A stretch of DNA of 63,774 nt, filler included, from Collodictyon triciliatum (GCA_043381765.1; 8 parts of 8 records of this genome joined end to end with filler, not necessarily neighbours in it); one strand, 5' to 3'; numbered from the whole stretch's first letter, positions 21,311-40,196 are shown. The notes: generated by a model not told the origin, from the letters alone. Translations and numbers: made by a program.

Positions 21311-24088
21311 ATGCTTTTGGTTGTGTTTATTGCCATCGTTTTCATTGTTTCATCGGCATCCTCAATTCATCCACGTCAAAGGTATATTTTGATTTATGAA
21401 TATTTATAGAGTACACTTTTGACTCAAATAAGGAAAACAGATGCCAGTATTCAAGAGATGAGTTGCTTTCCATGAAAATCGAAGATGCATTCCAAATTCT
21501 GTTGAGCTACTACGGTGAGACATGTCCTTTGTTAAAAGATAGTGAGGATAACTTTTCAGGGTTGATGAATGGTTGGAAAGATGGAGAATACTCGCTAGAA
21601 AATGGACATGGTGCTGAATGGAATTATGGAAGAAAATTAACATTTAGTAAGGCCGATTTTTATCAAGAAATTCATCCGCCTAAACGAAGTGGAAACAGGG
21701 AACGGGGGTTGGAGAACGAAGAGAACCGAAATGTGGCAGATGGAGATACTGAGACCCAATACGAACTCCTTGTCCAACTCTATGATTTACTTGGCGGCGA
21801 TAATTGGTTTCGGAACACTGGATGGAAGAATGAAAGTATTCCAATATGTGATTGGTATGGAATATCGTGTCATCAGAGTTGTTTGGATGAGGATTATAAG
21901 GTGATTTCTTGAAAAGATAATCATATCTATTGATTTTATTCTTGACATATTTTCTTTTATTTATAGAACAACACATGTCCTATATATGAAGTCAGGATGT
22001 CAGGAAACAACCTTAATGGTGACATTGAAGCTGCCTCTGCAATTTTTGAGAAGCTTCAATTGTTGGATTACTTGGACATGAGCTACAACTTCATTTACGG
22101 AAATCCTCCAGACTTTAATATCCCAAGTATTACGTATCTGAAACTCCATGTGAATCAAATTACAGGAACAGTTCCAATCTTCAGTGGAATCCCAAATGTT
22201 TTAAGAATTTATCTTTACAACAATCGGTTGACTGGTAAATTTTATTTTAATTCCATGTGTTATTGATAAAAACTAACTTTATATTACAGGAACTGTTCCA
22301 AACTTCAGTGGAATTCCAAATGTTTTAAGAATTTATCTTTACAACAATCGGTTGACTGGTAAATTTTATTTTAATTCCATGTGTTACAAGTACAAAGCTA
22401 AATTTATACTACAGGAACAGTTCCAAACTTCAGTGGGGTTCCAAATGTTTTTGAGATATATCTTTACAGCAACCAATTGAATGGTAAGTTTCAATTATTA
22501 TTTTCATGTATTATTGATAAAAACTAACTTTATATTACAGGAACAGTTCCAAACTTCAGTGGAGTTCCAAATCTTGAAAGAATTTATCTTTCCAACAATC
22601 AGTTGACCGGTAATTTATATTATTATTTCATGTAATATTGATGCAAAGCTAACTTTATACAACAGGAACTGTTCCAAACTTCAGTGGAATTCCAAATTCT
22701 TTAGGAATTTATCTTTACAACAATCTATTGGATGGTAAGTTTATTATAATAATTTTATTTATTATTGATGAAAACTAACTTTATACCACAGGAACCGTTC
22801 CAAAATTCAGTGGAATTCCAAATGTTTTAATAATTTACCTTGATAGAAACCGATTGAATGGTGATTCCTATTCATTTTTCCTTCTTTTTTTTTTGATTTT
22901 CATTTTTAACTTAATTTAATGAGTAATTTTAGGCACAATTCCAAACTTTTCATATATTCATAAACTGGAGATTTTTTCTGTCTATGATAATCAACTGGAG
23001 GGAAATGTTCCTGATTTCAAAGATTGCATAAACATCAAGGAAATAGTGTTGTTCCGAAATATGTTGTCAGGCACATTACCGATGTTCAATCTGAATAACC
23101 TGACAAGACTGGATGTGAGTGAAAACCAAATCAGTGGCTCTATACCAGAAAATTGGATATTACCTTCAATTAAATACATCGACTTGTCTTGGAACAAAAT
23201 GAACGGCAGAGTTCCAACCTATTTTCAGGGACTGCCAGAGCTGAAATCACTCGTTTTCTCTCACAACAAATTCTCTGGAAGCATGCCTGATTCGTTCTGG
23301 AATCTGCCCAATCTAGTCACCATTGACTTGAGAAACAATTCGTTTTCAGGAGACATTGGTATTTTTATTGTTCCAGCTTCAGGAAATTACGATTATTTTT
23401 ATGAAAACCTTTTGCTTGATGACAACCAACTCTATGGAGTATTGAAATGGAGGATATTTCAATATGCGGTAAACATAAAAACATTAAGTATTAAAAATAA
23501 TAACATCACCAAGCTTGATGAACTTACAAATCTCTTGAGCTGGACTTACCTTGACCTCACTGGAAATCCGATTGTTGGGAGCATTCCTGAATCATACATA
23601 GGATTTTCAAAGCTTGAATATTTGGGATTAAATACAACATCGATGAATCACGGAACAGCTAATTTTCTTCCTGGTTTTATGAATTTTACGACATCTTTCA
23701 ATCTACAAGATGAAACAAAACGCTACCTTTGTCCTTCCATTATTTCGAAATCTGGTCTGATTGAGTTGGAGGTTGACTTGAATCCAGAATACTATGACTT
23801 TGAATTTTGTAAATGTTTGACTGGATATTTTGGCTTTGGAAATAATTGCGTTCAATGCCCAAGAGGATGTGATTGCCTTGATGGAACGTCCTTGAAATTT
23901 TGTCATGCTTCACCAAGCGTCACCTCTGTGAAATCAATACTGCCGTGTCCACGTCGCGAGTCATGTGATGTGTCCATTCCAGAGAAAATTTCGAATTCAA
24001 ATACGACGGTGGAAATCATAGACCTGTGTCAAGAGGGTTATGAAGGTTATGCCTGCTCAAAATGTCAGAATGGATACGGAAATCAAGG
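21311..24088 (+). CDS. Signal-peptide LRR receptor-like protein (LRR N-cap, LRRs, Cys-rich module); 3'-partial
   Basis: Exons at 21311-21381 (MLLVVFIAIVFIVSSASS), 21441-21900 (N-cap LVQLYDLLGGDNWFRNTGWKNESIPICDWYGISC), 21967-22234, five 69-nt exons, and 22933 to the scaffold end. The last exon has plant-type LxxLxLxxNxLSGxIP repeats, then CKCLTGYFG..CVQCPRGCDC...CQEGYEGYACSKCQNGYG. All junctions are GT-AG and in frame. Confidence 0.92.
22166..22860 (+). repeat. Tandem exon+intron array (~125-nt period), one 23-aa LRR per exon
   Basis: Exons 22290-22358, 22415-22483, 22541-22609, 22666-22734 and 22792-22860 are each 69 nt, phase 1-1. The 55-57 nt introns are homologous, carry CTAAC/CTAAA branch points and end in ACAG. 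Confidence 0.93.
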
Positions 24089-26151: not shown

Positions 26152-28000
26152 TCATCCGGACGAGAGAATCAGATTGTGCGAGATGTCAAGCGAGACCAAG
26201 GAGGCCAAGGAGAACACACAACGCGGTATCTCCCTCAACTGGGTGTGTGGCAGCAAAGATTAAAACCGTGCCAATATATATGACTGAGGTATTGACAGCG
26301 AAAAAAAAAAAAAAGGGAAAAAAAGGAAGAAAATAAGGGAGTATCCAACAATCTCATACAAGATGTAAAAGCAAAAGACTGTATTCCAAATGGCACAATT
26401 AATAGCGGAAAGACAACAGCATATGTAGGCGAATTCTTTGTGTTTGGCTATGATTTCATAACTTGTGAACACATAATGACAAAGGGAGAATATGAATACT
26501 TGGTTTTTGCTCAAGCAAAATTTTTGCAACCCCGTGAGAAGAGACATAGAATCTGGAAGTGACTTAAGCTATTTAAAAAAAAAAGTGATTGATAGCTTTC
26601 AACAAAATATTTTTGAGTGCATCGCTTTTCAGGTATATATACAGGGTTCCCTTTGAAGAAAATCAGGGTAAGGGGGGGTTTTCTTCTTCAATTAATACAT
26701 TATGTTGTGTAATTATGTGAGAATAAAACTATAGTGACGAAAAATGAAACGTGACCTTGTTGAATGGGATATAAATGATTCTACTACCTGGTTGTACGAT
26801 ATATCTATCGATGTAAACCCTGTCCATTTATTTATCAAGGATGGCGATGCCGCGAAAGCCGAGTGTGCGCAGATTACATCATAAAGTTCAATTAACTTCA
26901 GTCTTTCAGAGAAAGGTATTTGCATCTTGAAGTCAAGTTGATCGATGTGATTTTGTGATATGGACATAAGGCTTTTAGGAGCCCGTCGAACGTCAGTCAT
27001 TCCTTCGGATTCTATAGACAAGACTCGCAGTTTCCTTAAAAAAGCTAACCCGCTCGGAAGGACGTCAATCTATCAGTTCAGCAGTACGATAAGGATAAGG
27101 TTATATATACATTTATATATTGGTTAAATTCATATGGAAGAAAAACGATTCGATTAATTCGGAACGAAATGCATGACTTACAGGGTTTTCGTGGATGGAA
27201 AGGCTTGTCAATTTGGTCAGGGAGGAAATATCGTCTGGTAAGACCTCGATACAGTTCTTGTGAAGATAGAGCATAACAAGGTTTTTCATTTCCCATACGC
27301 AATTGGGTACCGATGTCATTATATTATCGCTTAAATCTAACATAAAGAGGTTCTGCAGTTGGGATGCGTTGTAAGGGAGGGCATCAATTTTGTTTTCGTT
27401 GAGACAGAGCAGCTGCAGTCTTTTCAGGCGAGAAATACCATCCGGGATAGATGACAAGTTGTTACGACCGAGCCATAATGAAATCAAATTGGACAGTGCG
27501 GATATACCAAACGGCACTCCAGTGATGCTGTTATTTGCTGCGTTGAGTGTATCCAATCTTGTCAATAGCGATACGCCTTGTGGGAGAGACGATAGGAAGC
27601 GTTCATTGTAAAGGCCGAGCTCTCTCAAATTGGTCAGGCATGAAAGGCCCTCTGGCAGTGCAGATAAGCGGTTGCTGCTCAAGTTGAGAACCGTCAGGTT
27701 GGTTAGAGTAGAGACGCAGTCAGGAAGCTCTACAAATGAGTTTCCAAATAGATTAAGCAAAAGCAGGCCTGTCATCAGAGATATCCAATGGGGTAAAAGA
27801 ACAAGAGAGTTTGAGTTTGCAAATAGTTCCTGTAGATGAGGCAGTAAAAGCAGAGACTCAGGCAAGTTGTCGATGGAGCGAACATTGAACGAAAGGTGTG
27901 TGCACTGCCTGAACGGTTTGTCCCTGGGCTGGTATTGCGGATGGAGTTTCTTGAGCGCTTGCAAGGCAATTTCTTCGGGTGTGCTGGGTTTGTTGCCCAT
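26152..28000 (-). CDS. Intracellular LRR protein with N-terminal myristoylation-like motif, multi-exon
   Basis: MGNKPS start, about 9 LRRs in the 28000-27180 exon (e.g. LTNLTVLNLSSNRLSALPEGL), and further exons IDVLPSGLAFLRKLRVLSI, LKSLPDSMSLLTGLQKFCLSKNQ and LREIPRCVFSLASLVSLDISHNLI. The 3' end is uncertain. Confidence 0.8.
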
Positions 28001-28319
28001 GGCTTCTCGGAGGCTCTTACTGCTTTGCTGGTCGCCCTGCTGGGGTAATAGTCGGCTGTGTTTGGGTTGAAAGGTACTTTTAGGTTCGCGGACTCATACT
28101 TATCAACCTTCGTTGCTTTGTTGTTTTTTTGTTTTTTGTTNNNNNNNNNNNNNNNNNNNNNNNNNNNNNNNNNNNNNNNNNNNNNNNNNNNNNNNNNNNN
28201 NNNNNNNNNNNNNNNNNNNNNNNNNGTTTTTTGTCGTTTTTCCCAAAGTTTTTGTTTTATTTTCACAGGTATTTTTTTCATGTGCTATGCAGTCTAGTTT
28301 TGTTCATCTGAAATAAAAT

Positions 28320-28965: not shown

Positions 28966-31900
28966 GGAGACCCACTAAACGTCCTTTATTTTCATATTAA
29001 CTTGAAATAAACCATTATCGTGGAACTACTGGATTTTAACATTTCCATCTCGTGCACGTTCGCGATTGCTTCTACTTTTCGTATGATTTCTGTTGGTATT
29101 TTTTTTTTTTTTTAGAAAAACGATATTTTGTGCGACATTATTATTTATACTTATAATATTACCAGAAAGGGTAGAAAAATATGACTTTGGCGATTGCTCT
29201 TCAAAATCATGGTGCTTCATGAATTCAATTACTACTAAAGCAACATTATCGTGCCTATGAACTGAAGAAAAATTTCCTTTTTTTAAACTATCGTAAAGTT
29301 CTTGATTAAGTGTTGATTTTAAAGCCTTTTCATGCATCTCATTCCCCACTGTAAGATCATGTATACCCTATGCATGTATATATTGCTGAAATTATAAATA
29401 AGTCTTCGTTTCTTTGACTGAAAAAACGTATGTACAAATTTTAACAAAAATATATATGACCAATTCCCCTAAGATTTTTTGAGAAAAAAATGTATAAAGT
29501 GACTGTTAATATAATTAAAAGTACTGAGTCTTGTAGTTTATTACCTTTTGCATTCGGTCTCTGCACATATATTCCTTTCTGAAATGATAGTCTCTGGAAT
29601 AAGTGAAGATTGAAAATAGTGCAGTTGTGAGAATCATCCAGTTGAAAATGAAAAATGGGACGGAAAGTGCCACGTATCTATGAGGCAAAAATTTATGTCA
29701 ATATGTGCAGGCCACATGTTGTATGTCCGATTTAGAAAAGGCCATATATGCGAATCGTTTTTATTTATATTTACCCCATCCGATCATGATAAATGGCCAT
29801 GCATAACATTGAATATAATATCCAAACAATAAATTGAGATATTATTCGAATAGGAAGAATTGAAATGGAAGAGACGTAAAATATGGCCACCTGAAATATT
29901 TCAGAGTACAAAAAGGTATGGTGATACCATATGACATTACAATTCAACTCATTATCTCCATATATTAATAACAATCTCAACAGGGTGAATAATCCGTATA
30001 GCGTCCCGAATATATAGGGTATTTTCCATTCGTTGATATTAATTGGTTGAAGTATTGATGCTTCCTTCGAAAAAATGAATGTAAATGCTAAAAGAATCAT
30101 GATTGGCGATATGATAAAGAACCGCGACAGTATTACTAAATTCGAATTGACTTGTAAATTTTCGCAATGCTGATCCATTATGTCGTAATCAGTGAAACCG
30201 AACGTCATCAAAAAGCCAATCACGGACGTCAGTTGCACCCTGTTGAAAATATGCTCGATTAAATTCGTTTAAATTTTTTTCCTTTATTCGATTCAAAATT
30301 CGTTTGAACTTTAAAATGTAAAAATACATACGAGGTAATTTTCTTATTCCTCGATGACTGAAGGCCTCTTTGAAAATTTTCTTCATCGTACGGGTTGGGA
30401 AATCTAAGATCTCCTAGGTATCTCGCAAGTCCTCTTTGATCTTTCGCCAATACGTACGGATCATCTAGGTAGCCGCCCTGTTTTATTTTATTGAATTAGT
30501 TGTCAACCCCCTCACGCATTTAATCGTCGGTATGAATTTAGATAGTAAATTGGTCGATTAAGCTATAAATCATGCTTACATCCTTGGCAATTAAAGTCGG
30601 TTTTTTTTCTTCATTATCTATTTCTTTAATTTTTAATTTTTCAAAATCAGAGTCCTCGTATCCAGCATAACTATCGCTGCGTGTTTTGTGATGAACTTTC
30701 CAATAACGCAAAGTTTTTCCATTTTTGTTCGAACTAACCTCCTCAAAACCGTAAATATTTCCCTGATTATAAAAAATTCATTTATAATTATAAAATCATT
30801 TTATGGGTCATTTAATACATAAATTAAAATATATAATTACTGAATAAACTGAAAAACTGTCTAGGTGCTTACAATTTTAGAAAGCATGCCCTCCCATTTA
30901 TTTTTCAACTTATCATTAATAATAATGTTTGAATCCGATGCAAAAGGTGCGATTGAAAGGGCATTTTCGTGAGCTATTGTAATTATGCATATGGATATTT
31001 ATTCTTTTCTGCTATTCATCGATGAATTTTATATTCAAAAATCGTTTTTTATATTAATAAGATATTACCATCTCCGATTACATCAAAACTATTCTTTGAA
31101 CATTGGAGCATTCCACCCCGGAGCCAACCATTAGCCATGACGATGGATATTTTGGTCTAAAGAGAATTTTGTCAGAGATGAATTATCGATTTGCATTTTT
31201 GAGAAAAAAAGTGTTACATGGCCAAAACTGTTCTCTGACACCTTATCCATTAACATTCTTGATATTTCTATTAAGTTTTTGCCTTCTTCTCCAAATAAAC
31301 CAGTGATGAACTAACACCAAAGTAAAAATGAGGACACGAAAAGTAATTATAGATTGAATGGTGTTATCAAATTTTTATTTTATTTTCTTTATTATATTTG
31401 AAGGAAAAAATATTACTGTGATCCAAAGACCTGTTATTGGTTCGCATTCATCGTTAAATATAAAATAATATTTGATTATCAAAGGCGGTATGAACTCAAA
31501 TTAAGAATTATAATAAATAAATCAATTGTGCTCCATTCATAAATTCACTACAGAGGCAAATTAGAGATTACCTGTCGACTTAACTTTATGTATTCCAAAT
31601 CTATAGTTATAATATTTTCATTTTCATTTTCATTTTCATTTTCATTTTCATTTTCATTTTCATTTTCATTTTCATTTTCATTTTCATTTTCATTTTCATT
31701 TTCATTTTCATTTTCATTTATTGGATACTTACTCTTTTGCTAGGCAGATGATTATCCTTTTTAATTAAAGACAGTAATAGAAATTAGAATTAATTTTCAA
31801 TTATTACTTCATAGACAGATGATTACCTAAGGACTTTTTCAACCTCCATAATGTTTTTTTGATGGAGCTTGTCATAATCAGAAATTTCGAGCAAAACTAT

Positions 31901-33406: not shown

Positions 33407-36400
33407 ATGAAACCGACACTATTATCATCAATAGTGGCTGCTATACTAATTGGTATGCAAAAATAAATTTCAAAATTTAATCAGATAATTAATTGGTATC
33501 TAAATATTTGTATAAGTATTTCAGTATTCAGCAATTTTTATTTGATCCAGATTATAATACATATTAATGATATATAATACCATAAAATATTGATGCTGAT
33601 CTATCAGACAAAGAGAGGCATTTATTTCACTTGTGATAGATGGGTGTTTTCTCTAAACAAGCAGATTGATGAGTATTGGATATCGATTAGAATGACCGTG
33701 TCTATCATTTTAGATAGTTTCAATAATTTGTAATTTAAAAGATTTTTGTATCATCTTGTGTATTTCAGGGCTAATATCAAGCAACCAGTTGATGCAAGTT
33801 CAAGGACAGGACAGTTTGACACTCACAATAGGCGGGTACAGAAACTACATTTGGAGCGTCGCTGTTACTCCTGATGGTTCAAAGATTGTATCTGGAAGTG
33901 AAGATATGACTGTAAAAATTTGGAATCTTGCTGATGGGTCTTTAATTCGCTCCTTAACTGGGCACACAAACCCTGTTTATGGGGTCGCTGTTTCCCCTGA
34001 CGGGTCAATGATCGCTTCTGGTAGTGGCGATTTGTCAGTAAGAATATGGGATCTTTATGAAGGACGATTAATGGGCATTATGACCGACCACGTCAGAAAA
34101 GTCAGCAGTGTCACCTTTTCTCCTGACGGCTCAAAGATTCTTTCTGGAAGTTGGGATCATAATATCAAAATATGGAATTTTCCTCAATACACCTTGAATC
34201 GTACATTAAACGGGCATACTGATTGGATTAGTGGTGTTACTGTTACCCCAGATGGTTCAAAGATTGTATCTGGGTCTGGTGGTGATTACGACAATTCAGT
34301 AAGAGTTTGGAATTTTTCTGATGGATCTTTAATTTTCTTGGTGAAGGGTCACGTTGGAGTTAGTGGGGTTGCTGTTGCTCCTGATGGTTCAAAATTTGTC
34401 TCTGTTGGAAACGAAGGTACCATAAAAGTTTGGAATCTTTCTGATGGAGCACTACTTCACGCTATGATTGATACTCGTTCGTTTAAAAGTGTTGTTATAT
34501 CCCCCGACAGCCTTACTATTGTCTCTGGTGACGTCGATGGTAGAATCAAAACGTGGGGTCTCTTTGATGGTGCTCTTATCCAAGTATTAACGAGTCATTA
34601 CAGCTGGGTTTATAGTCTCGCTATCACTTCAGATGACTCAAAAATTATTTCTGGGAGTGAAGATAATACAATCAAGATATGGAACCTATCAGACGGTTCA
34701 TTAATTCGTACAGTGACCGCTAATGATGGCGCTGGCAGCTATGGCCATGTTGATATTGTTACAAGCGTCACATTCACCCCTGATAGTTCCAGTATTGTTT
34801 CTGTATCCCGTGATCTTACTGTCAGAGTCTGGAATGTAACAAATGGGTTATTGATTCGTACATTGAGAGGTCACAGTGACTGGGTTAGTAGCGTTGTTAT
34901 TACTCCTGACGGCTCAACTATTATTTCCGGTGCTGGAGGTGGCGCTGATAGTTCTGTCAGACTTTGGAATTATTCGGACGGAGTCTTGATCTACTTAGTC
35001 AAAGGGCATTACGGGGTGGATGGTGTTGCTGTTACCCCGGATGGCTCCATATTCGTGTCCGCTGGGAATGATAGAGTGTTGAAGCTTTGGAATATTTCTA
35101 ATGGAGCCTTAATTAGAACACTGAGCGGTCATAATGGTTCAATCAAAAGTGCCGCTGTAACTCCTGATAGCTTGAAAGTTGTATCTGGAAGTATTGATAA
35201 AACAATAAAAATTTGGAATATATCCGATGGAAATGTGATTCGCACACTGATTGGTCATAATGACGGAGTCAATAGTGTCTTTGTGACCCCTGATGGCTCA
35301 AGGATTGTTTCAGGAAGTAGTGATAACACAATCAAAATTTGGGGTATATCAGATGGAAATCTGATTCGCACACTAATTGGTCACAATGGTGATGTTAATT
35401 GTGTTTTCGTAATCGCTGATGGTTCTAAAATTGTTTCTGGAAGTGCTGACAAGACAGTAAAATTATGGAGTGTTTCAGACGGAGTATTGATTCGTTCATT
35501 AGATGGTCCAGGAGGTCACACGGACTCTGTCAATTCTGTTTCTATTGCACCTGATAGCTCACAGATTATCTCTGGGAGTGCAGATGGTACAATCAAAGTT
35601 TGGGCGATGTGTGGTGCTGGGTTCTTTTACGACTCTTTAATGAAGGCGTGCGCACCATGCAAAGCTGGAAGCTATAGCACTGGAGGAACATCTATATGCA
35701 CTTCATGTCCCTCTGGAACATACAATCCATTAAGTGGTCAATCAGAATGTGCTTCGTGTCCTGTGGGAACCTACAACTCGGAAATCGCGTCAGTAAGTTT
35801 GGATGCTTGCCTTCTATGTCCTATAGGAACATACAACCCATACAATGGTTCAAAAAGTGAAAAATCATGCCTGTTGTGTGGAGCCGGAGCATTCAATCCA
35901 TCAAGTGGTCAATCGGAATGTACTTTATGCCCTGCCGGAACATATAGTACAGAAACGGGTTCAATAAGCAATACCACTTGCCACCTGTGCCCAGTAGGAA
36001 CACACAACCCATCAGCCGGTCAAACATCTTGCCTTATTTGCGAAGCAGGAACATATAGTCCATCCGTTGGCTTAAGCACCAATTGCATCTTGTGTCCTTC
36101 TGGAACATATAATCCAACAATTGGACAGTCAGAATGTATTTCATGTGGAAGTGGATGGAATGGTGACATAACTGGGTCAAAAAGCATTAATGACTGTTTG
36201 TGTCTTCGTTCCACTTATTTAGACTCAAAGTCTAGACAGTGCAAGGAATGTCCGAAAGGGTTCGTGTGCGATGGAAGCAGTCATCTGAAAGTTGAATCAG
36301 GATATTGGCAAGCCCCTAGCTCAAGTGATAAGTATATTGCATACAAGTGCTTAAATGAAGATGCATGCACCGGAGGAAACAATACATGTGCTGATGGTTA

Positions 36401-37685
36401 TACAGGGGTATTATGCGGTACCTGCGATGAAGGCTACGGTAAAACAGGCGGATATTTTTGTACAAAATGCACATCAAGAGAAGTCAATGGATTCTTGGTT
36501 TTTTTGACCATCACAATTCCTTTGGGATTTGTATTTTATATGATAGAGCAATCAAGACAGCCTAAAACAGAAAGTATACAAATTTTAAAGACGCTGGCAA
36601 CACATTTCCAGATTTTGTCGTATCTTGCCAACTTTGATGTCGACTGGAGCTCGGCCATTATTTCGGTGATGAAAATCCCTGCTCTTTTTTCATTTACCCT
36701 ATCGATAGATAGCTACACGAATGAATGTCAGTTTGAAATGTCCATTTATGACAAGGTACTTTACTCGATGATGACCCCTTTTATTTTGATGGCAGTTGTC
36801 ATTTTTATTATTTTCCTGAAGATAATGTGGAAATTAAGGACAGAGCAAATGAAAAAACACGAGATTAAATTCTCTGAATTAAATCAAGAATTTATATTTT
36901 CGATGTTGGTGATGTTATTTTTTGTCCATCCAACAATTACGTCATCAATATCAAATATTTTTGGGTGTGAAGTGCTGGGGGATGAAAGTTACTTGAGGGC
37001 TGACATGTCGATTATGTGTGACAGTCAGACATATCTGTCTTGGAGGGATGCATCTTTGGTTTATGTTGTATTGTATTGCTTCGGAGGGCCATTAGTTCTT
37101 GCTGCATACATGTTTCATGAGAGGTCATCACTGGTTAATCCTTCGTCTAAAATTTACAGCTTACTTAGATTTTTAGTGGATGGATATACAGTAGATTGCT
37201 TTTATTGGGAAATTGTGAGTATGATGCAAAAGCTTATTGTTGTTATCATAAGCGTAACTCTCCTGCCTGTTCTACAAATATATTTTGGCTTGTGGATTTT
37301 AATTTTAAGTGGGATATCGTCTGCTTATTTTGAGCCTTTTATGTCGAGTGTATTGAAGAAATCTCAGATTTATTCCATATCAGTCCTTTACTTTACGATG
37401 ATGACAAGTTTGTTATTCCGCTATATGGATTTGACTAGCTCAACTGAAGTTGTGCTTTTAATTTTAGTTATTCTGTTCAACGGCTTGTTTGCTGGTATGT
37501 CATTGTTTAAGGCCGGACCGTCTGTTCTGATTTCATTCTTTGACAAGATCTACAGAATGGCACGTCTAGTATTTGAAACTGTGATGAATTCATCTATAGT
37601 CATAAACACCAATAAAAAATGGAAAGGATTCAGGGAAGAAAAGGCGATGAAGAATTTTCTGACTGGTTCGGCGCCACTTCTCTAA
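33407..37685 (+). CDS. Signal peptide + 14 WD40 repeats + Cys-rich repeats + multipass membrane domain
   Basis: Exon 1 is 33407-33452 (MKPTLLSSIVAAILI-G), then a phase-1 GTATGC...TTTCAG intron, then exon 2 at 33769-37685. It holds 14 WD repeats, about 8 CxxCPxGTYxP units (GCC2_GCC3/ephrin-receptor-like), CADGYTGVLCGTCDEGYG, about 9 hydrophobic segments including YLRADMSIMC and FLVDGYTVDCFYWEIV, and a short tail. Confidence 0.93.
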
Positions 37686-39070: not shown

Positions 39071-39718
39071 ATGAAGGTATGTTTGACCCTCCTTTTCCTT
39101 TCTCTTCAGCTGTCTCTGCTGCTGTTTCCCTGCCGGATGGCGCAGTTCTCCTTTCGAATCAGATGAAAACAAGGAACAGTCGCACACAAGAATGCCGCAT
39201 AGAAATAGAAACCAAAGAATATATACACAAAATGAGCTTAGCGGCGATAACAGCCCTACCCACACGTATCGCATCTCCATCTCTATTCTCTTATTGATAG
39301 ACTTTTTTCTTTTTTGCTATCCACACCTGCAGACCTTCGAAGAGTTTTATCCGTACTACTTGAAAGAGCACTCCAACCCTTACAATCGCATAATGCACTT
39401 TATTGGGACATCAGGCGCTTTGTACTTTGTAAGAACCCATGAGTCAAAAACTCTTCCTTCCATTCTGTTTCTCACTCGTTCCAAAAGAAAAAAAGAAAAA
39501 AAGAAAAACATTGACATGAATACAATAAACAAGCTGCTGATGACAATTGTGAAGCTCGCCCCCATCAACATCCTGTACGGCCTTCTTTGTGGATACGGGT
39601 TTGCATGGTACGAATATTTCATCCACAATCGTGTCGAATCAAACCAACGCTCCCGTCTCCCCATATCAACAGGGTGGGCCACTTCTTCATCGAGCGCAAC
39701 AAACCGGCCACCTTCAAA
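39071..39718 (+). CDS. DUF962 / Mpo1-like membrane protein, multi-exon; 3'-partial
   Basis: MK|TFEEFYPYYLKEHSNPYNRIMHFIGTSGALYF|LLMTIV...LLCGYGFAW|VGHFFIERNKPATFK, with the family's EH, HxxG and GHxxxExNxPA motifs. Confidence 0.88.
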
Positions 39719-39736
39719 GTATTCCCATCTCAACAG

Positions 39737-39737
<1 letters not shown>

Positions 39738-39827
<90 letters not shown>

Positions 39828-39915
39828 AGACAAAGAAAGACAAAGAAAGACAAAGAAAGACAAAGAAAGACAAAGAAAGACAAAGAAAGACAAAGAAAGA
39901 CAAAGAAAGACAAAG
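39738..39915. repeat. (CAA)n followed by (AAAGACAAAG)n simple repeats, intronic
   Basis: Directly visible in the sequence. Confidence 0.9.
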
Positions 39916-40196
39916 AAAAACAAGGAAACAGATACATGGATGCGGCGTGTGTTCAATCCTGTCGTGATTNNNNNNNNNNNNNNNNNNNNNNNNNNNNNNN
40001 NNNNNNNNNNNNNTTAATTAATTAANNNNNNNNNNNNNNNNNNNNNNNNNNNNNNNNNNNNNNNNNNNNCACCATGCTGTCTCCATAACATAAAAGAAAC
40101 ATTTCAAAATATCATAGGGCTAATTTTCATTTTCCTTTTTCTTTCAATTCTCTTTATCGGTTCACATTTCACGATATCCTGATTTTCCTCCTCCTA

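What the first reader, a model, noticed from the sequence alone, without database searches (positions are those of the whole stretch)
33407..37685. Candidate modular surface-receptor family with interchangeable WD40 or LRR sensors
Seen: this gene reads signal peptide - 14 WD40 - Cys-rich repeats - CxC...CxxCPxGxxCxG...CxxGYxGxLCxxCxxGYG - multipass TM - short tail with no kinase. The LRR gene (21311-24088) carries a module with the same Cys pattern (CKC...CVQCPRGCDC...CQEGYEGYACSKCQNGYG) behind an LRR array. The gene at 1-1184 has the same leader-exon structure as this one, with 7 blades and a QS stalk. Known: this Cys-rich + TM module (FLxxGY...YWExV, reminiscent of the FLC/TRP-like C-terminal domain) occurs in many uncharacterised protist proteins. 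Inference: three of eight unlinked scaffolds carry a member, which suggests a large expanded family that swaps repeat-based recognition domains onto one membrane signalling unit, for prey, pathogen or self/non-self recognition.
Basis: partly seen in the sequence, partly recalled or inferred. Interest (0 to 1): 0.82.

Follow-up and report, generated by a model that had tools for sequence, protein, structure and literature searches.

The report
WD40-propeller receptor on CRMP-like membrane core
This is an intact protist gene for a surface protein that puts two WD40 propellers, normally found inside cells, outside the cell on a cysteine-rich nine-helix membrane module that thousands of protist proteins share under many different outer domains.

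Summary
A two-exon gene (33407-33452, 33769-37685) encodes a signal peptide, 14 WD40 repeats, six Ephrin_rec_like Cys repeats, a DUF7630 Cys module, about nine TM helices and a tail of about 50 residues with no Pfam domain.

The Cys+TM module is a very large protist family: 7693 clusters at E<=1e-3, and C-terminal in nearly all of the 150 listed. Its outer domains vary widely: TIG, cadherin, MAM, beta-helix, LRR, and RCC1, Kelch, FG-GAP and PQQ propellers. Domain swapping on one membrane unit is therefore real.

None of the relatives I examined carries WD40. The repeats resemble cytosolic STAND-type arrays, with 50% identity to a Reticulomyxa NB-ARC protein.

The LRR gene carries the start of the module before its contig ends. 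The 7-blade gene shares only the leader-exon structure and similar WD40 repeats.

The closest characterised look-alikes are the alveolate CRMPs. Relatives, but not this protein itself, match Pfam TRP (PF06011). No solved fold matched above background.

Expansion within this genome could not be tested because no genome is held.

Verdict: a new variant of a known kind, of moderate interest.

The parts
33407..33452 (+). Exon 1: start codon and signal-peptide h-region (MKPTLLSSIVAAILI plus the first base of a Gly codon)
   Evidence: Read directly from the sequence. The same phase-1 leader exon, splitting a Gly codon, is found in the WD40 gene at 1184-1142.
33453..33768 (+). Intron, GT..AG, 316 nt, phase 1
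   Evidence: Not covered by any laid contig, so it is inferred from the sequence and the paralogue only.
33769..37685 (+). Exon 2: the rest of the coding sequence with its stop codon
   Evidence: A single open frame. Protein P0001 was translated from 33768.
33810..35603 (+). 14 WD40 repeats (two propellers' worth). Seven carry an N-x-S/T sequon directly after the closing Trp.
   Evidence: Pfam WD40 E 5e-119; repeat parsing; sequons.
35604..36194 (+). Six Ephrin_rec_like (GCC2/GCC3, TNFR-like) Cys-rich repeats forming the stalk
   Evidence: PF07699 E 7.5e-40 with 6 stretches; TNFR_ELAPOR1_6th E 1.8e-15.
36195..36479 (+). Family Cys module (CxC...CxxCPxGxxC...GYW...CxxGYxGxLCxxCxxGYG...CxxC), containing DUF7630
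   Evidence: PF24633 at 29.5 bits against a cut-off of 27. Conserved Cys columns in A1. Beta-rich in the model.
36480..37532 (+). Multipass membrane domain of about nine TM helices, with an extracellular disulfide hairpin and the cytosolic motif FLxxGY....YWE....(R)K
   Evidence: Hydropathy. AF2 models with pLDDT 88.3 and 91.9. Invariant C258, C275 and W338. Contigs of run X1 cover 36829-37601 with 0 and 2 differences.
37533..37685 (+). Cytosolic tail of about 50 residues plus the stop codon; no recognisable domain
   Evidence: No Pfam match. Low pLDDT after residue 470 of the C-terminal piece.
21311..24088 (+). Partial paralogue: signal peptide, N-terminal region, about 20 LRRs (five of them in one-repeat exons of 69 nt), then the start of the same Cys module (23808-24088). 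Cut by the contig end.
   Evidence: Exon assembly. LRR_8 E 1.5e-20 and DUF7630 E 0.0017. Profile match of 17.0 bits against at most 0.9 in 200 shuffles. tblastn E 4.7e-4.
1..1184 (-). Possible relative: the same leader-exon structure, 7 WD40 repeats (47-54% identical to the target's array), then a (TCTCAG)n microsatellite to the contig end. No module seen.

Best explanation
This is a real, intact gene of an AT-rich microbial eukaryote that uses the standard genetic code. It encodes an N-out, roughly nine-TM, C-in surface glycoprotein.

The membrane-proximal Cys module (DUF7630) plus the TM domain is a conserved cassette found at the C-terminus of thousands of protist proteins, beneath highly variable extracellular domains. 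This copy carries an outer domain not seen on the cassette in any relative I examined: 14 canonical WD40 repeats of the kind normally attached to cytosolic STAND NTPases. They sit on a stalk of six Ephrin_rec_like repeats.

Shown:
- the gene structure and domain order;
- family membership;
- the diversity of outer domains among relatives;
- a confident nine-helix model with no solved counterpart found.

Inferred:
- the propellers bind an external ligand or surface;
- the rigid Cys-rich stalk couples binding or force to the TM core;
- the TM core acts as a dimer (a symmetric TM7/TM8 interface is predicted);
- the core passes the signal inward, either as cation flux, as reported for fission-yeast Pkd2 of the distantly related Pfam TRP family, or by licensing regulated exocytosis, as CRMPs do in Toxoplasma and Tetrahymena.
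For: Gene and architecture.

Family:
- phmmer of residues 810-1305 found 7693 clusters at E<=1e-3, 2283 at E<=1e-10 and 133 at E<=1e-30. The match lies at the C-terminus in nearly all of the 150 listed proteins (293-6169 aa).
- Named sources include Rigifila, Clastostelium, Euplotes, Paramecium, Anaeramoeba, Prymnesium and Mesostigma.

Outer domains: of 37 relatives scanned, 20 have Ephrin_rec_like, 16 TIG, 5 Chlam_PMP, 4 RCC1, 2 FG-GAP, 2 PQQ, 2 LRR, 1 Kelch and 1 OpuAC. Cadherin, MAM, ANF_receptor, Notch and pentraxin also occur. These are classical extracellular domains, so the N-terminal side lies outside the cell.

Topology:
- There is no hydrophobic segment in residues 1-904.
- There are 33 Cys in residues 613-905 against 1 in the WD40 part.
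- An N-x-S/T sequon follows the closing Trp in 7 of 14 repeats here and in 6 of 7 in the 7-blade gene. The figure is 67 of 1883 repeats in the 120 best WD40 hits.

Models: pLDDT 88.3 with pTM 0.83, and pLDDT 91.9 with pTM 0.88.

Dimer: ipSAE 0.46 against a best control of 0.00. The three runs agree in at least 100% of contacts and the partner's pLDDT is at least 73. That mark was reached by 21 of 30 proteins solved as pairs of one chain and 0 of 23 solved as single chains. On eukaryotes it was reached by 17 of 29, but by only 1 of the 7 with no older solved relative. The model supports binding; it does not show it.

Link to Pfam TRP: P0175 scores 42.5 bits and P0184 32.5 bits against a cut-off of 28.5, over the stretch that aligns with positions 224-455 of the window's C-terminal piece. 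Five of 28 A1 members hit PF06011 at E<=0.01.

CRMP build: a conserved core of two EGF-like domains plus 9 TM, a predicted TM heterodimer, and a requirement for rhoptry secretion (PMC9815656, passages read). Tetrahymena CRMPs were found in a screen for exocytosis factors (PMC9670195, passages read). Reconstituted Pkd2 passes Ca2+ when the membrane is stretched (PMC9727806, abstract and passages read).
Against: - The window protein itself gives no PF06011 hit even at E<=10.
- I made no direct sequence comparison with any named CRMP, so that link rests on shared build only.
- The nine-TM count is my reading of helices in the models plus charge distribution. No topology predictor was run.
- No ligand, partner or cytosolic signalling motif is known.
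- The signal peptide and intron are inferred from the sequence and one paralogue, not from RNA.
- The dimer score comes from a model without an alignment. The published CRMP predictions found heterodimers, not homodimers (PMC9815656).
- WD40 repeats outside the cell are unusual, so the orientation deserves an experiment.
Confidence: 0.6

Rival explanations
1. The TM core is itself a force- or ligand-gated cation channel of the fungal Pkd2/Flc (Pfam TRP, PF06011) type. The propellers and Cys stalk act mainly as an external tether that pulls on it, for example during pseudopod adhesion or prey capture.
For: Two relatives pass Pfam's PF06011 threshold in the region aligned to TM5-TM9, and 5 of 28 family members hit PF06011 at E<=0.01. 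Atlas neighbour clusters carry PF06011 in 12-15% of members. Conserved polar residues lie in or next to helices (Q139, Q361, E of YWE, R/K). An oligomer is predicted. Reconstituted S. pombe Pkd2 passes Ca2+ on membrane stretch (PMC9727806, abstract and passages).
Against: The protein itself does not match PF06011 at E<=10. No pore-like match to any solved channel rose above background; the best was Z 8.4 to Hrd1. A dimer of nine-TM subunits has no obvious central pore. No channel activity has been shown for any member with a DUF7630 module.
Confidence: 0.3
2. One reading: this organism holds a large expanded family that swaps repeat-based sensors (WD40, LRR) onto one signalling unit, and it serves immune-like recognition of prey, pathogens or self/non-self.
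For: WD40 and LRR versions both occur within 64 kb of sampled sequence. The WD40 repeats are of the STAND/NLR-associated type. Variation among repeats is concentrated after GH and before the closing strand. The LRR paralogue has five tandem one-repeat exons of 69 nt with similar introns, a layout suited to gain and loss of repeats. A 60%-identical TM fragment (P0010) exists in public data.
Against: No genome is held, so there is no census. Only one hit above 35% identity was found among 1.84 billion representatives. The target's repeats average 46% identity, so they are not near-identical. The 7-blade gene has no demonstrated module. No polymorphism or selection data exist.
Confidence: 0.25
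3. It is a passive adhesin or surface-coat glycoprotein. The multipass domain is only an anchor or a sorting device, and no signal is transmitted.
For: The tail is short and has no recognisable domain. Many relatives carry adhesin-like beta-helix/PMP, TIG and cadherin arrays.
Against: A single helix would suffice as an anchor. Yet the nine-helix core, its extracellular disulfide hairpin and the cytosolic FLxxGY..YWE..RK motif are conserved across eukaryotic supergroups, with invariant C, C and W. CRMPs of the same build are needed for triggered secretion (PMC9815656).
Confidence: 0.1
4. It is an artefact: a chimeric assembly or wrong gene model, in which the WD40 array is really a cytosolic protein and the Cys/TM part a separate gene.
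For: No laid contig bridges the WD40/Cys junction at 35604 or the intron. WD40 fused to this module was not seen in any relative examined.
Against: One uninterrupted frame of 1305 codons crosses the junction with no N and no stop. A second gene has the same signal-peptide exon in front of the same kind of WD40 repeats. The sequon enrichment fits secretion. Other propeller types occupy the same position in relatives.
Confidence: 0.03

Closest known systems
Cysteine Repeat Modular Proteins (CRMPs) of Apicomplexa and Tetrahymena
   Same: Both have a signal peptide, a large modular outer part with EGF-like, Ephrin-receptor-like or TNFR-like Cys repeats, then a 'conserved core' of Cys-rich domains directly followed by about nine TM helices and a short tail. 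A TM-domain dimer is predicted for both. Singer et al. note Dictyostelium proteins with a similar nine-TM core (PMC9815656, PMC9670195 and PMC3083381, passages read).
   Different: CRMP outer parts carry Kringle, lectin and similar domains, not WD40. The CRMP dimer is predicted to be a heterodimer. Homology to a named CRMP was not tested here because no CRMP sequence was obtainable. The organism here is a free-living freshwater protist, so rhoptry biology does not apply.
Pfam TRP family PF06011 (fungal Pkd2 / Flc proteins)
   Same: Both have an N-terminal extracellular domain, a multipass core and a cytosolic tail. Relatives of this protein pass the family's threshold over TM5-TM9.
   Different: This protein itself does not match at E<=10. 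The outer domains differ: the ML-like domain I recall for Pkd2 is absent here, and that recollection comes from no call. Fungal members lack the DUF7630 Cys module as far as I saw.
Uncharacterised protist proteins with DUF7630 (PF24633) plus a multipass domain
   Same: Full-length collinear homology of the Cys module and TM domain, with invariant Cys, Cys and Trp and shared motifs.
   Different: The outer domain differs. Relatives examined have TIG, cadherin, MAM, beta-helix, LRR, RCC1, Kelch, FG-GAP or PQQ. None of those examined has WD40.
STAND NTPase WD40 arrays (NB-ARC/NACHT-WD40, HET-E type)
   Same: The repeats are the same type. Identity is 50% to the array of a Reticulomyxa filosa NB-ARC protein and 36-51% to cyanobacterial and fungal arrays.
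   Different: There is no NTPase domain. The array sits behind a signal peptide and in front of disulfide-rich domains. The closing 'WD' is mostly 'WN' followed by x-S/T.
Plant CRINKLY4 receptor kinases
   Same: The ectodomain consists of a seven-bladed WD40-like propeller followed by a TNFR-like Cys-rich domain (bioRxiv 10.1101/2020.08.10.245050, abstract in the search listing).
   Different: CRINKLY4 has a single TM helix and a cytosolic kinase. Its blades are, as I recall, not canonical WD40 by sequence. This is an analogy only.

Membership tests
DUF7630 + multipass-TM protist family | DUF7630 Cys module above Pfam's gathering score | tested here: met
   29.5 bits against a cut-off of 27, E 8.3e-7, residues 51-92 of the C-terminal piece.
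DUF7630 + multipass-TM protist family | Collinear homology across the Cys module and the whole TM domain, located at the C-terminus | tested here: met
   133 clusters at E<=1e-30. Typical matches cover query positions 1-430 at the C-terminal end of proteins of 293-6169 aa.
DUF7630 + multipass-TM protist family | Conserved Cys pair of the extracellular hairpin, and the FLxxGY....YWE....RK motif | tested here: met
   Invariant C258, C275 and W338; nearly invariant G330, K346, Q139 and Q361 in A1. The same holds in A2 and A3.
Pfam TRP (PF06011; fungal Pkd2/Flc) | The protein's own match to the PF06011 profile | tested here: not met
   No PF06011 row even at max E 10.
Pfam TRP (PF06011; fungal Pkd2/Flc) | Link through relatives that pass the threshold over the aligned region | tested here: met
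   P0175 at 42.5 bits and P0184 at 32.5 bits (cut-off 28.5), profile positions 227-415. The same stretch aligns with positions 224-455 of the window piece. Five of 28 A1 members hit at E<=0.01.
Pfam TRP (PF06011; fungal Pkd2/Flc) | Stretch-activated Ca2+ permeability | not testable with these tools
   Needs reconstitution or electrophysiology.
CRMPs | Signal peptide, modular Cys-rich outer part, Cys-rich domains abutting a multipass core, short tail | tested here: met
   compared with the descriptions in PMC9815656 and PMC3083381.
CRMPs | Nine TM helices in the core | tested here: inconclusive
   The models show ten helical segments. I read nine as membrane-spanning and one broken segment as extracellular, from conserved Cys and charge distribution. 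No topology predictor was run.
CRMPs | Sequence or profile homology to a named CRMP (PfCRMP1-4, TgCRMPA/B, TtCRMP1/2) | not tested
   No CRMP sequence could be obtained with these tools. No named CRMP appeared among 25 long hits or in the Atlas rows.
CRMPs | Requirement for regulated exocytosis | not testable with these tools
   Needs genetics in the organism.
GPCRs (7TM) | Seven-helix GPCR fold | tested here: inconclusive
   Class B GPCR chains appear only at Foldseek E 0.05-0.3 with TM-scores 0.13-0.22. None is among the VIA rows above background.
STAND NTPases with WD40 sensor arrays | Canonical WD40 repeats of the STAND-associated type | tested here: met
   PF00400 E 5e-119. The best relatives are NB-ARC, NACHT or nSTAND proteins.
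STAND NTPases with WD40 sensor arrays | NACHT or NB-ARC NTPase domain | tested here: not met
   No such family appears among the Pfam rows shown for the protein (the best 25 of 54 at E<=0.1). The WD40 array starts about 15 residues after the leader, which leaves no room for an NTPase domain.

The most novel reading that the evidence does not exclude
A free-living freshwater protist has moved NLR/STAND-type WD40 sensor arrays from the cytosol to the cell surface. It converted the closing 'WD' into N-glycosylation sequons and mounted the arrays, alongside LRR arrays built from one-repeat exons, on the same CRMP/Pkd2-like dimeric nine-TM core. That would be an extracellular, repeat-diversifying recognition system. 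It would also show that the 'apicomplexan-specific' CRMP invasion receptor is one branch of a pan-eukaryotic receptor superfamily.
Probability: 0.2. Interest if true: 0.75.

Novelty: new variant of a known kind. Interest (0 to 1): 0.48.

Why it matters
CRMPs are essential invasion factors of Toxoplasma and transmission factors of Plasmodium, yet nobody knows what their nine-TM core does. If this module is the same core, then thousands of free-living protists carry it under interchangeable outer domains. That offers tractable, non-parasitic systems and a large alignment for working out its mechanism: channel, receptor or exocytosis licence.

The WD40 version is a clear case of a normally cytosolic repeat array being redeployed outside the cell. 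The sequon pattern gives a simple glycosylation test of that claim.

Taken alone, the gene is one more member of a large uncharacterised family. Interest is therefore moderate, not high.

Tried and rejected
- Family census in this genome: not possible, because no genome is held.
- Earlier findings of this scan: nothing by place, sequence or words.
- Fold assignment of the TM core:
  - Foldseek against PDB gave no match at E<=1e-3, for the 496-residue model and for the 381-residue TM-only model.
  - VIA-align against 48,161 chains gave a best Z of 8.3 and 8.4 to Hrd1 (rmsd 6.1-6.5 A, 193 aligned). The tool's own notes place that within the background for helical bundles.
  - This does not show that the fold is new.
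- PDB sequence search with the A1 profile: only the Cys-rich part matched (Mst1 mastigoneme protein 3.7e-6, ELAPOR1, Eph receptors, TNFR). Weak rows to HKT transporters (E 0.0015 and 0.037) were not pursued.
- WD40 fused to this module in other organisms: not seen.
  - 0 of 166 stored module-bearing proteins match a WD40 profile built from this gene.
  - 0 of 25 long hits list PF00400.
  - 0 of 120 best WD40 hits contain the Ephrin or Cys/TM parts.
  - No WD40 repeat family (PF00400) appears among the 25 of 32 families shown for the 37 relatives; WD40_RLD, the RCC1-like domain, matches 4.
  - These are only the best-scoring few of 7693 clusters.
- CRMP link by name: no CRMP-named row.
- Literature: a full-text search for 'DUF7630' found 0 papers. 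'extracellular WD40' found 2 papers, one of them on CRINKLY4. 'Reticulomyxa filosa' with 'WD40' found 7 papers, none on such receptors judging by their titles and abstracts.
- RNA evidence:
  - No RNA holder is listed.
  - Run X1 is only guessed to be RNA. Its contigs cover 36829-37601.
  - One X1 contig has a loose end at 36829 that I recall as a template-switch cDNA adaptor. That is a weak hint of transcription.
  - The intron and the WD40/Cys junction have no cover.
- Organism name: the window's actin is found letter for letter only on unnamed contigs. The taxon remains open. A Reticulomyxa-like rhizarian is a guess from one WD40 hit.
- HET-E-like near-identical repeats: rejected for the target, whose repeats average 46% identity. 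The 7-blade gene's repeats average 67%.


Full report
**What the window is.** The 63,774 bases are eight pieces of about 7.9 kb joined by N spacers. No whole genome is held. The DNA is AT-rich (24-45% GC in 2-kb bins). It reads with the standard code and has short GT-AG introns.

**The gene.**
- An ATG at 33407 opens a 46-base exon encoding MKPTLLSSIVAAILI plus the first base of a Gly codon.
- A GT..AG intron (33453-33768) follows, then one open frame runs to the stop at 37685.
- The 1305 residues of exon 2 (P0001) contain the following:
  - 14 WD40 units by repeat parsing, or 13 Pfam stretches at E 5e-119;
  - six Ephrin_rec_like repeats in residues 613-809, E 7.5e-40, which also match TNFR-like models;
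  - a Cys module with DUF7630 at 29.5 bits against a cut-off of 27;
  - hydrophobic segments only from residue 905 on;
  - a last stretch of about 50 residues with no domain.

**Orientation.**
- There is no hydrophobic segment between the leader and residue 905, so the WD40 array lies on the same side of the membrane as the 33-Cys region.
- Relatives carry TIG, cadherin, MAM, LRR, ANF-receptor and Ephrin_rec_like domains at the same position. That side is therefore outside the cell.
- An N-x-S/T sequon follows the closing Trp in 7 of 14 repeats here and in 6 of 7 in the second WD40 gene. The figure is 67 of 1883 repeats (3.6%) in the 120 best WD40 hits.
- The closest named relative, a Reticulomyxa filosa NB-ARC protein, reads 'WD-V-S-S-G' at that place. 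This fits a secreted, glycosylated array, but it is not proof. One fungal hit also has 9 of 13.

**The membrane core.**
- AlphaFold2 with family alignments gave confident models: pLDDT 88.3 with pTM 0.83 for 496 residues, and pLDDT 91.9 with pTM 0.88 for the TM part alone.
- The models show a beta-rich Cys module followed by ten helical segments.
- I read nine of these as spanning the membrane. A broken segment and a beta hairpin lie outside, and the hairpin carries the invariant Cys pair C258/C275.
- On that reading the K/R-rich loops, the conserved FLxxGY....YWE....RK motif and the tail lie inside. This topology is inference; no topology predictor was run.
- Neither model matched a solved structure above background. 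Foldseek gave nothing at E<=1e-3, and the best VIA Z was 8.3-8.4, to Hrd1. GPCR chains appear only at TM-scores of about 0.13-0.22.
- A two-copy prediction of the TM part scored ipSAE 0.46, against 0.00 for the best of three controls. The interface is symmetric, on positions 357-377 and 399-411.
  - The three runs agree in at least 100% of contacts, and the partner's pLDDT is at least 73.
  - That mark was reached by 21 of 30 proteins solved as pairs of one chain and 0 of 23 solved as single chains.
  - On eukaryotes it was reached by 17 of 29, but by only 1 of the 7 with no older solved relative.
  - The model supports binding; it does not show it.

**The family.**
- Residues 810-1305 found 7693 clusters at E<=1e-3, 2283 at E<=1e-10 and 133 at E<=1e-30 among 1.84 billion representatives. 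The match lies at the C-terminal end in nearly all of the 150 listed proteins, which range from 293 to 6169 residues.
- Only one hit exceeds 35% identity: a 293-residue fragment at 60% (P0010).
- Named sources span several eukaryotic supergroups:
  - Rigifila and Clastostelium;
  - Euplotes, Paramecium, Anaeramoeba (labelled 'G protein-coupled receptor-related'), Prymnesium, Tetraselmis and Mesostigma.
- Among 37 relatives scanned whole, Pfam found Ephrin_rec_like in 20, TIG in 16, DUF7630 in 12, Chlam_PMP in 5, RCC1 in 4, Beta_helix in 4, FG-GAP in 2, PQQ-type propellers in 2, LRR in 2, Kelch in 1 and OpuAC in 1.
- Long hits add cadherin, MAM, ANF_receptor with NCD3G, Notch, pentraxin, TIR and TPR.
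- One membrane cassette under swapped outer domains, several of them propellers or LRRs, is therefore a property of the whole family.
- WD40 itself was not seen on the cassette in any protein I examined (0 of 166, 0 of 25, 0 of 120; PF00400 is not among the 25 of 32 families shown for the 37). Those are only the top of a very long list.

**The two other genes.**
- I assembled the LRR gene from nine exons with GT-AG introns of 55-72 nt. It has a signal peptide, an N-terminal region, about 20 LRRs and then the Cys module.
- Its last 92 residues align collinearly to profile positions 1-83 at 17.0 bits, against at most 0.9 bits in 200 shuffles. The contig ends just before the first TM helix would be expected.
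- It is very probably a member, but the TM part is unseen.
- Five of its LRRs each sit in their own 69-nt exon.
- The minus-strand gene at 1184-1 has the same phase-1 leader exon splitting a Gly codon. It has seven WD40 repeats that are 47-54% identical to the target's array.
- After the seventh repeat it runs into a (TCTCAG)n microsatellite at the contig end. Neither a stalk nor a module can be claimed for it.
- tblastn found nothing else in the window.

**Links to known proteins.**
- *Pfam TRP (PF06011, fungal Pkd2/Flc).*
  - The window protein does not match, even at E<=10.
  - Five of 28 family members match at E<=0.01.
  - Two relatives pass the curated threshold (42.5 and 32.5 bits against 28.5), over the stretch that aligns with TM5-TM9 here.
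  - I therefore call it a probable distant relative, not a member.
  - Fission-yeast Pkd2 has an extracellular N-terminal domain and a cytosolic tail, and when reconstituted it passes Ca2+ on membrane stretch (PMC9727806, abstract and passages).
- *CRMPs.*
  - The papers describe a signal peptide and modular Cys-rich outer parts.
  - They define a conserved core of two EGF-like domains plus nine TM helices, and predict a TM heterodimer.
  - CRMPs are required for rhoptry secretion.
  - Singer et al. note Dictyostelium proteins with a similar core (PMC9815656 and PMC3083381, passages). Tetrahymena relatives came from a screen for exocytosis factors (PMC9670195, passages).
  - The build is the same as here, but I could not obtain a CRMP sequence. 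Homology is untested.
- *CRINKLY4.* Its ectodomain combines a WD40-like propeller with a TNFR-like domain (abstract only). This is an analogy.

**Source and expression.**
- Contigs of three runs labelled freshwater metagenome, from three studies, hold exact pieces of 151-223 nt of the gene.
- One run of unknown library type holds 36829-37601 with 0 and 2 differences.
- The window's actin occurs letter for letter only on unnamed contigs.

**Verdict.** This is a real gene and a new WD40-bearing variant of a large, known-but-uncharacterised modular membrane family. The mechanism (ligand or force sensing, passed to a dimeric nine-TM core) is inferred.

Noticed in passing
window 22290-22860 (+): Five tandem units, each a 69-nt exon encoding exactly one 23-residue LRR plus a 55-57-nt intron of similar sequence. 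The layout looks like recent exon-plus-intron duplication and would allow repeat number to change by unequal crossing-over or exon skipping.
   Followed up: partly
window 61455-62582 (+): An intronless actin gene (Pfam Actin E 4.4e-149) sits in a locally GC-richer stretch (41-45% GC). Its exact protein is found only on unnamed contigs in the public collection.
   Followed up: partly
window 27116-28093 (-): An open frame for an LRR protein without a signal peptide (LRR_14 E 6.8e-24). An internal Met followed by Gly (MGNKPS...) could be the true, possibly myristoylated start. It is not related to the receptor family.
   Followed up: partly
window 14293-14691 (+): An exon-sized open frame with RCC1 repeats (E 9.6e-29). 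RCC1 propellers are also outer domains of some family relatives, but no link to this fragment was seen.
   Followed up: no
window 1-150, 8900-9400, 12400-12950, 39700-39960, 47800-47908, 55943-56090, 59900-60900, 63300-63774: Long microsatellite and low-complexity tracts (TCTCAG, CT/TTC-rich, CAA/CAG, poly-T), often at the ends of pieces. Assembly probably broke at such repeats, which is why two of the three genes are truncated.
   Followed up: no
window 34200-34470 and 34830-35100 (repeats 4-5 and 9-10 of the WD40 array): Repeats 4 and 9 (58% identical) and repeats 5 and 10 (68% identical) are each other's closest partners. This points to an internal duplication of a block of five repeats, not a clean 7+7 doubling.
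   Followed up: partly
window 29774-30268 (-): A hydrophobic open frame of 165 codons with no Pfam match. It may be part of an unrelated membrane protein.
   Followed up: no
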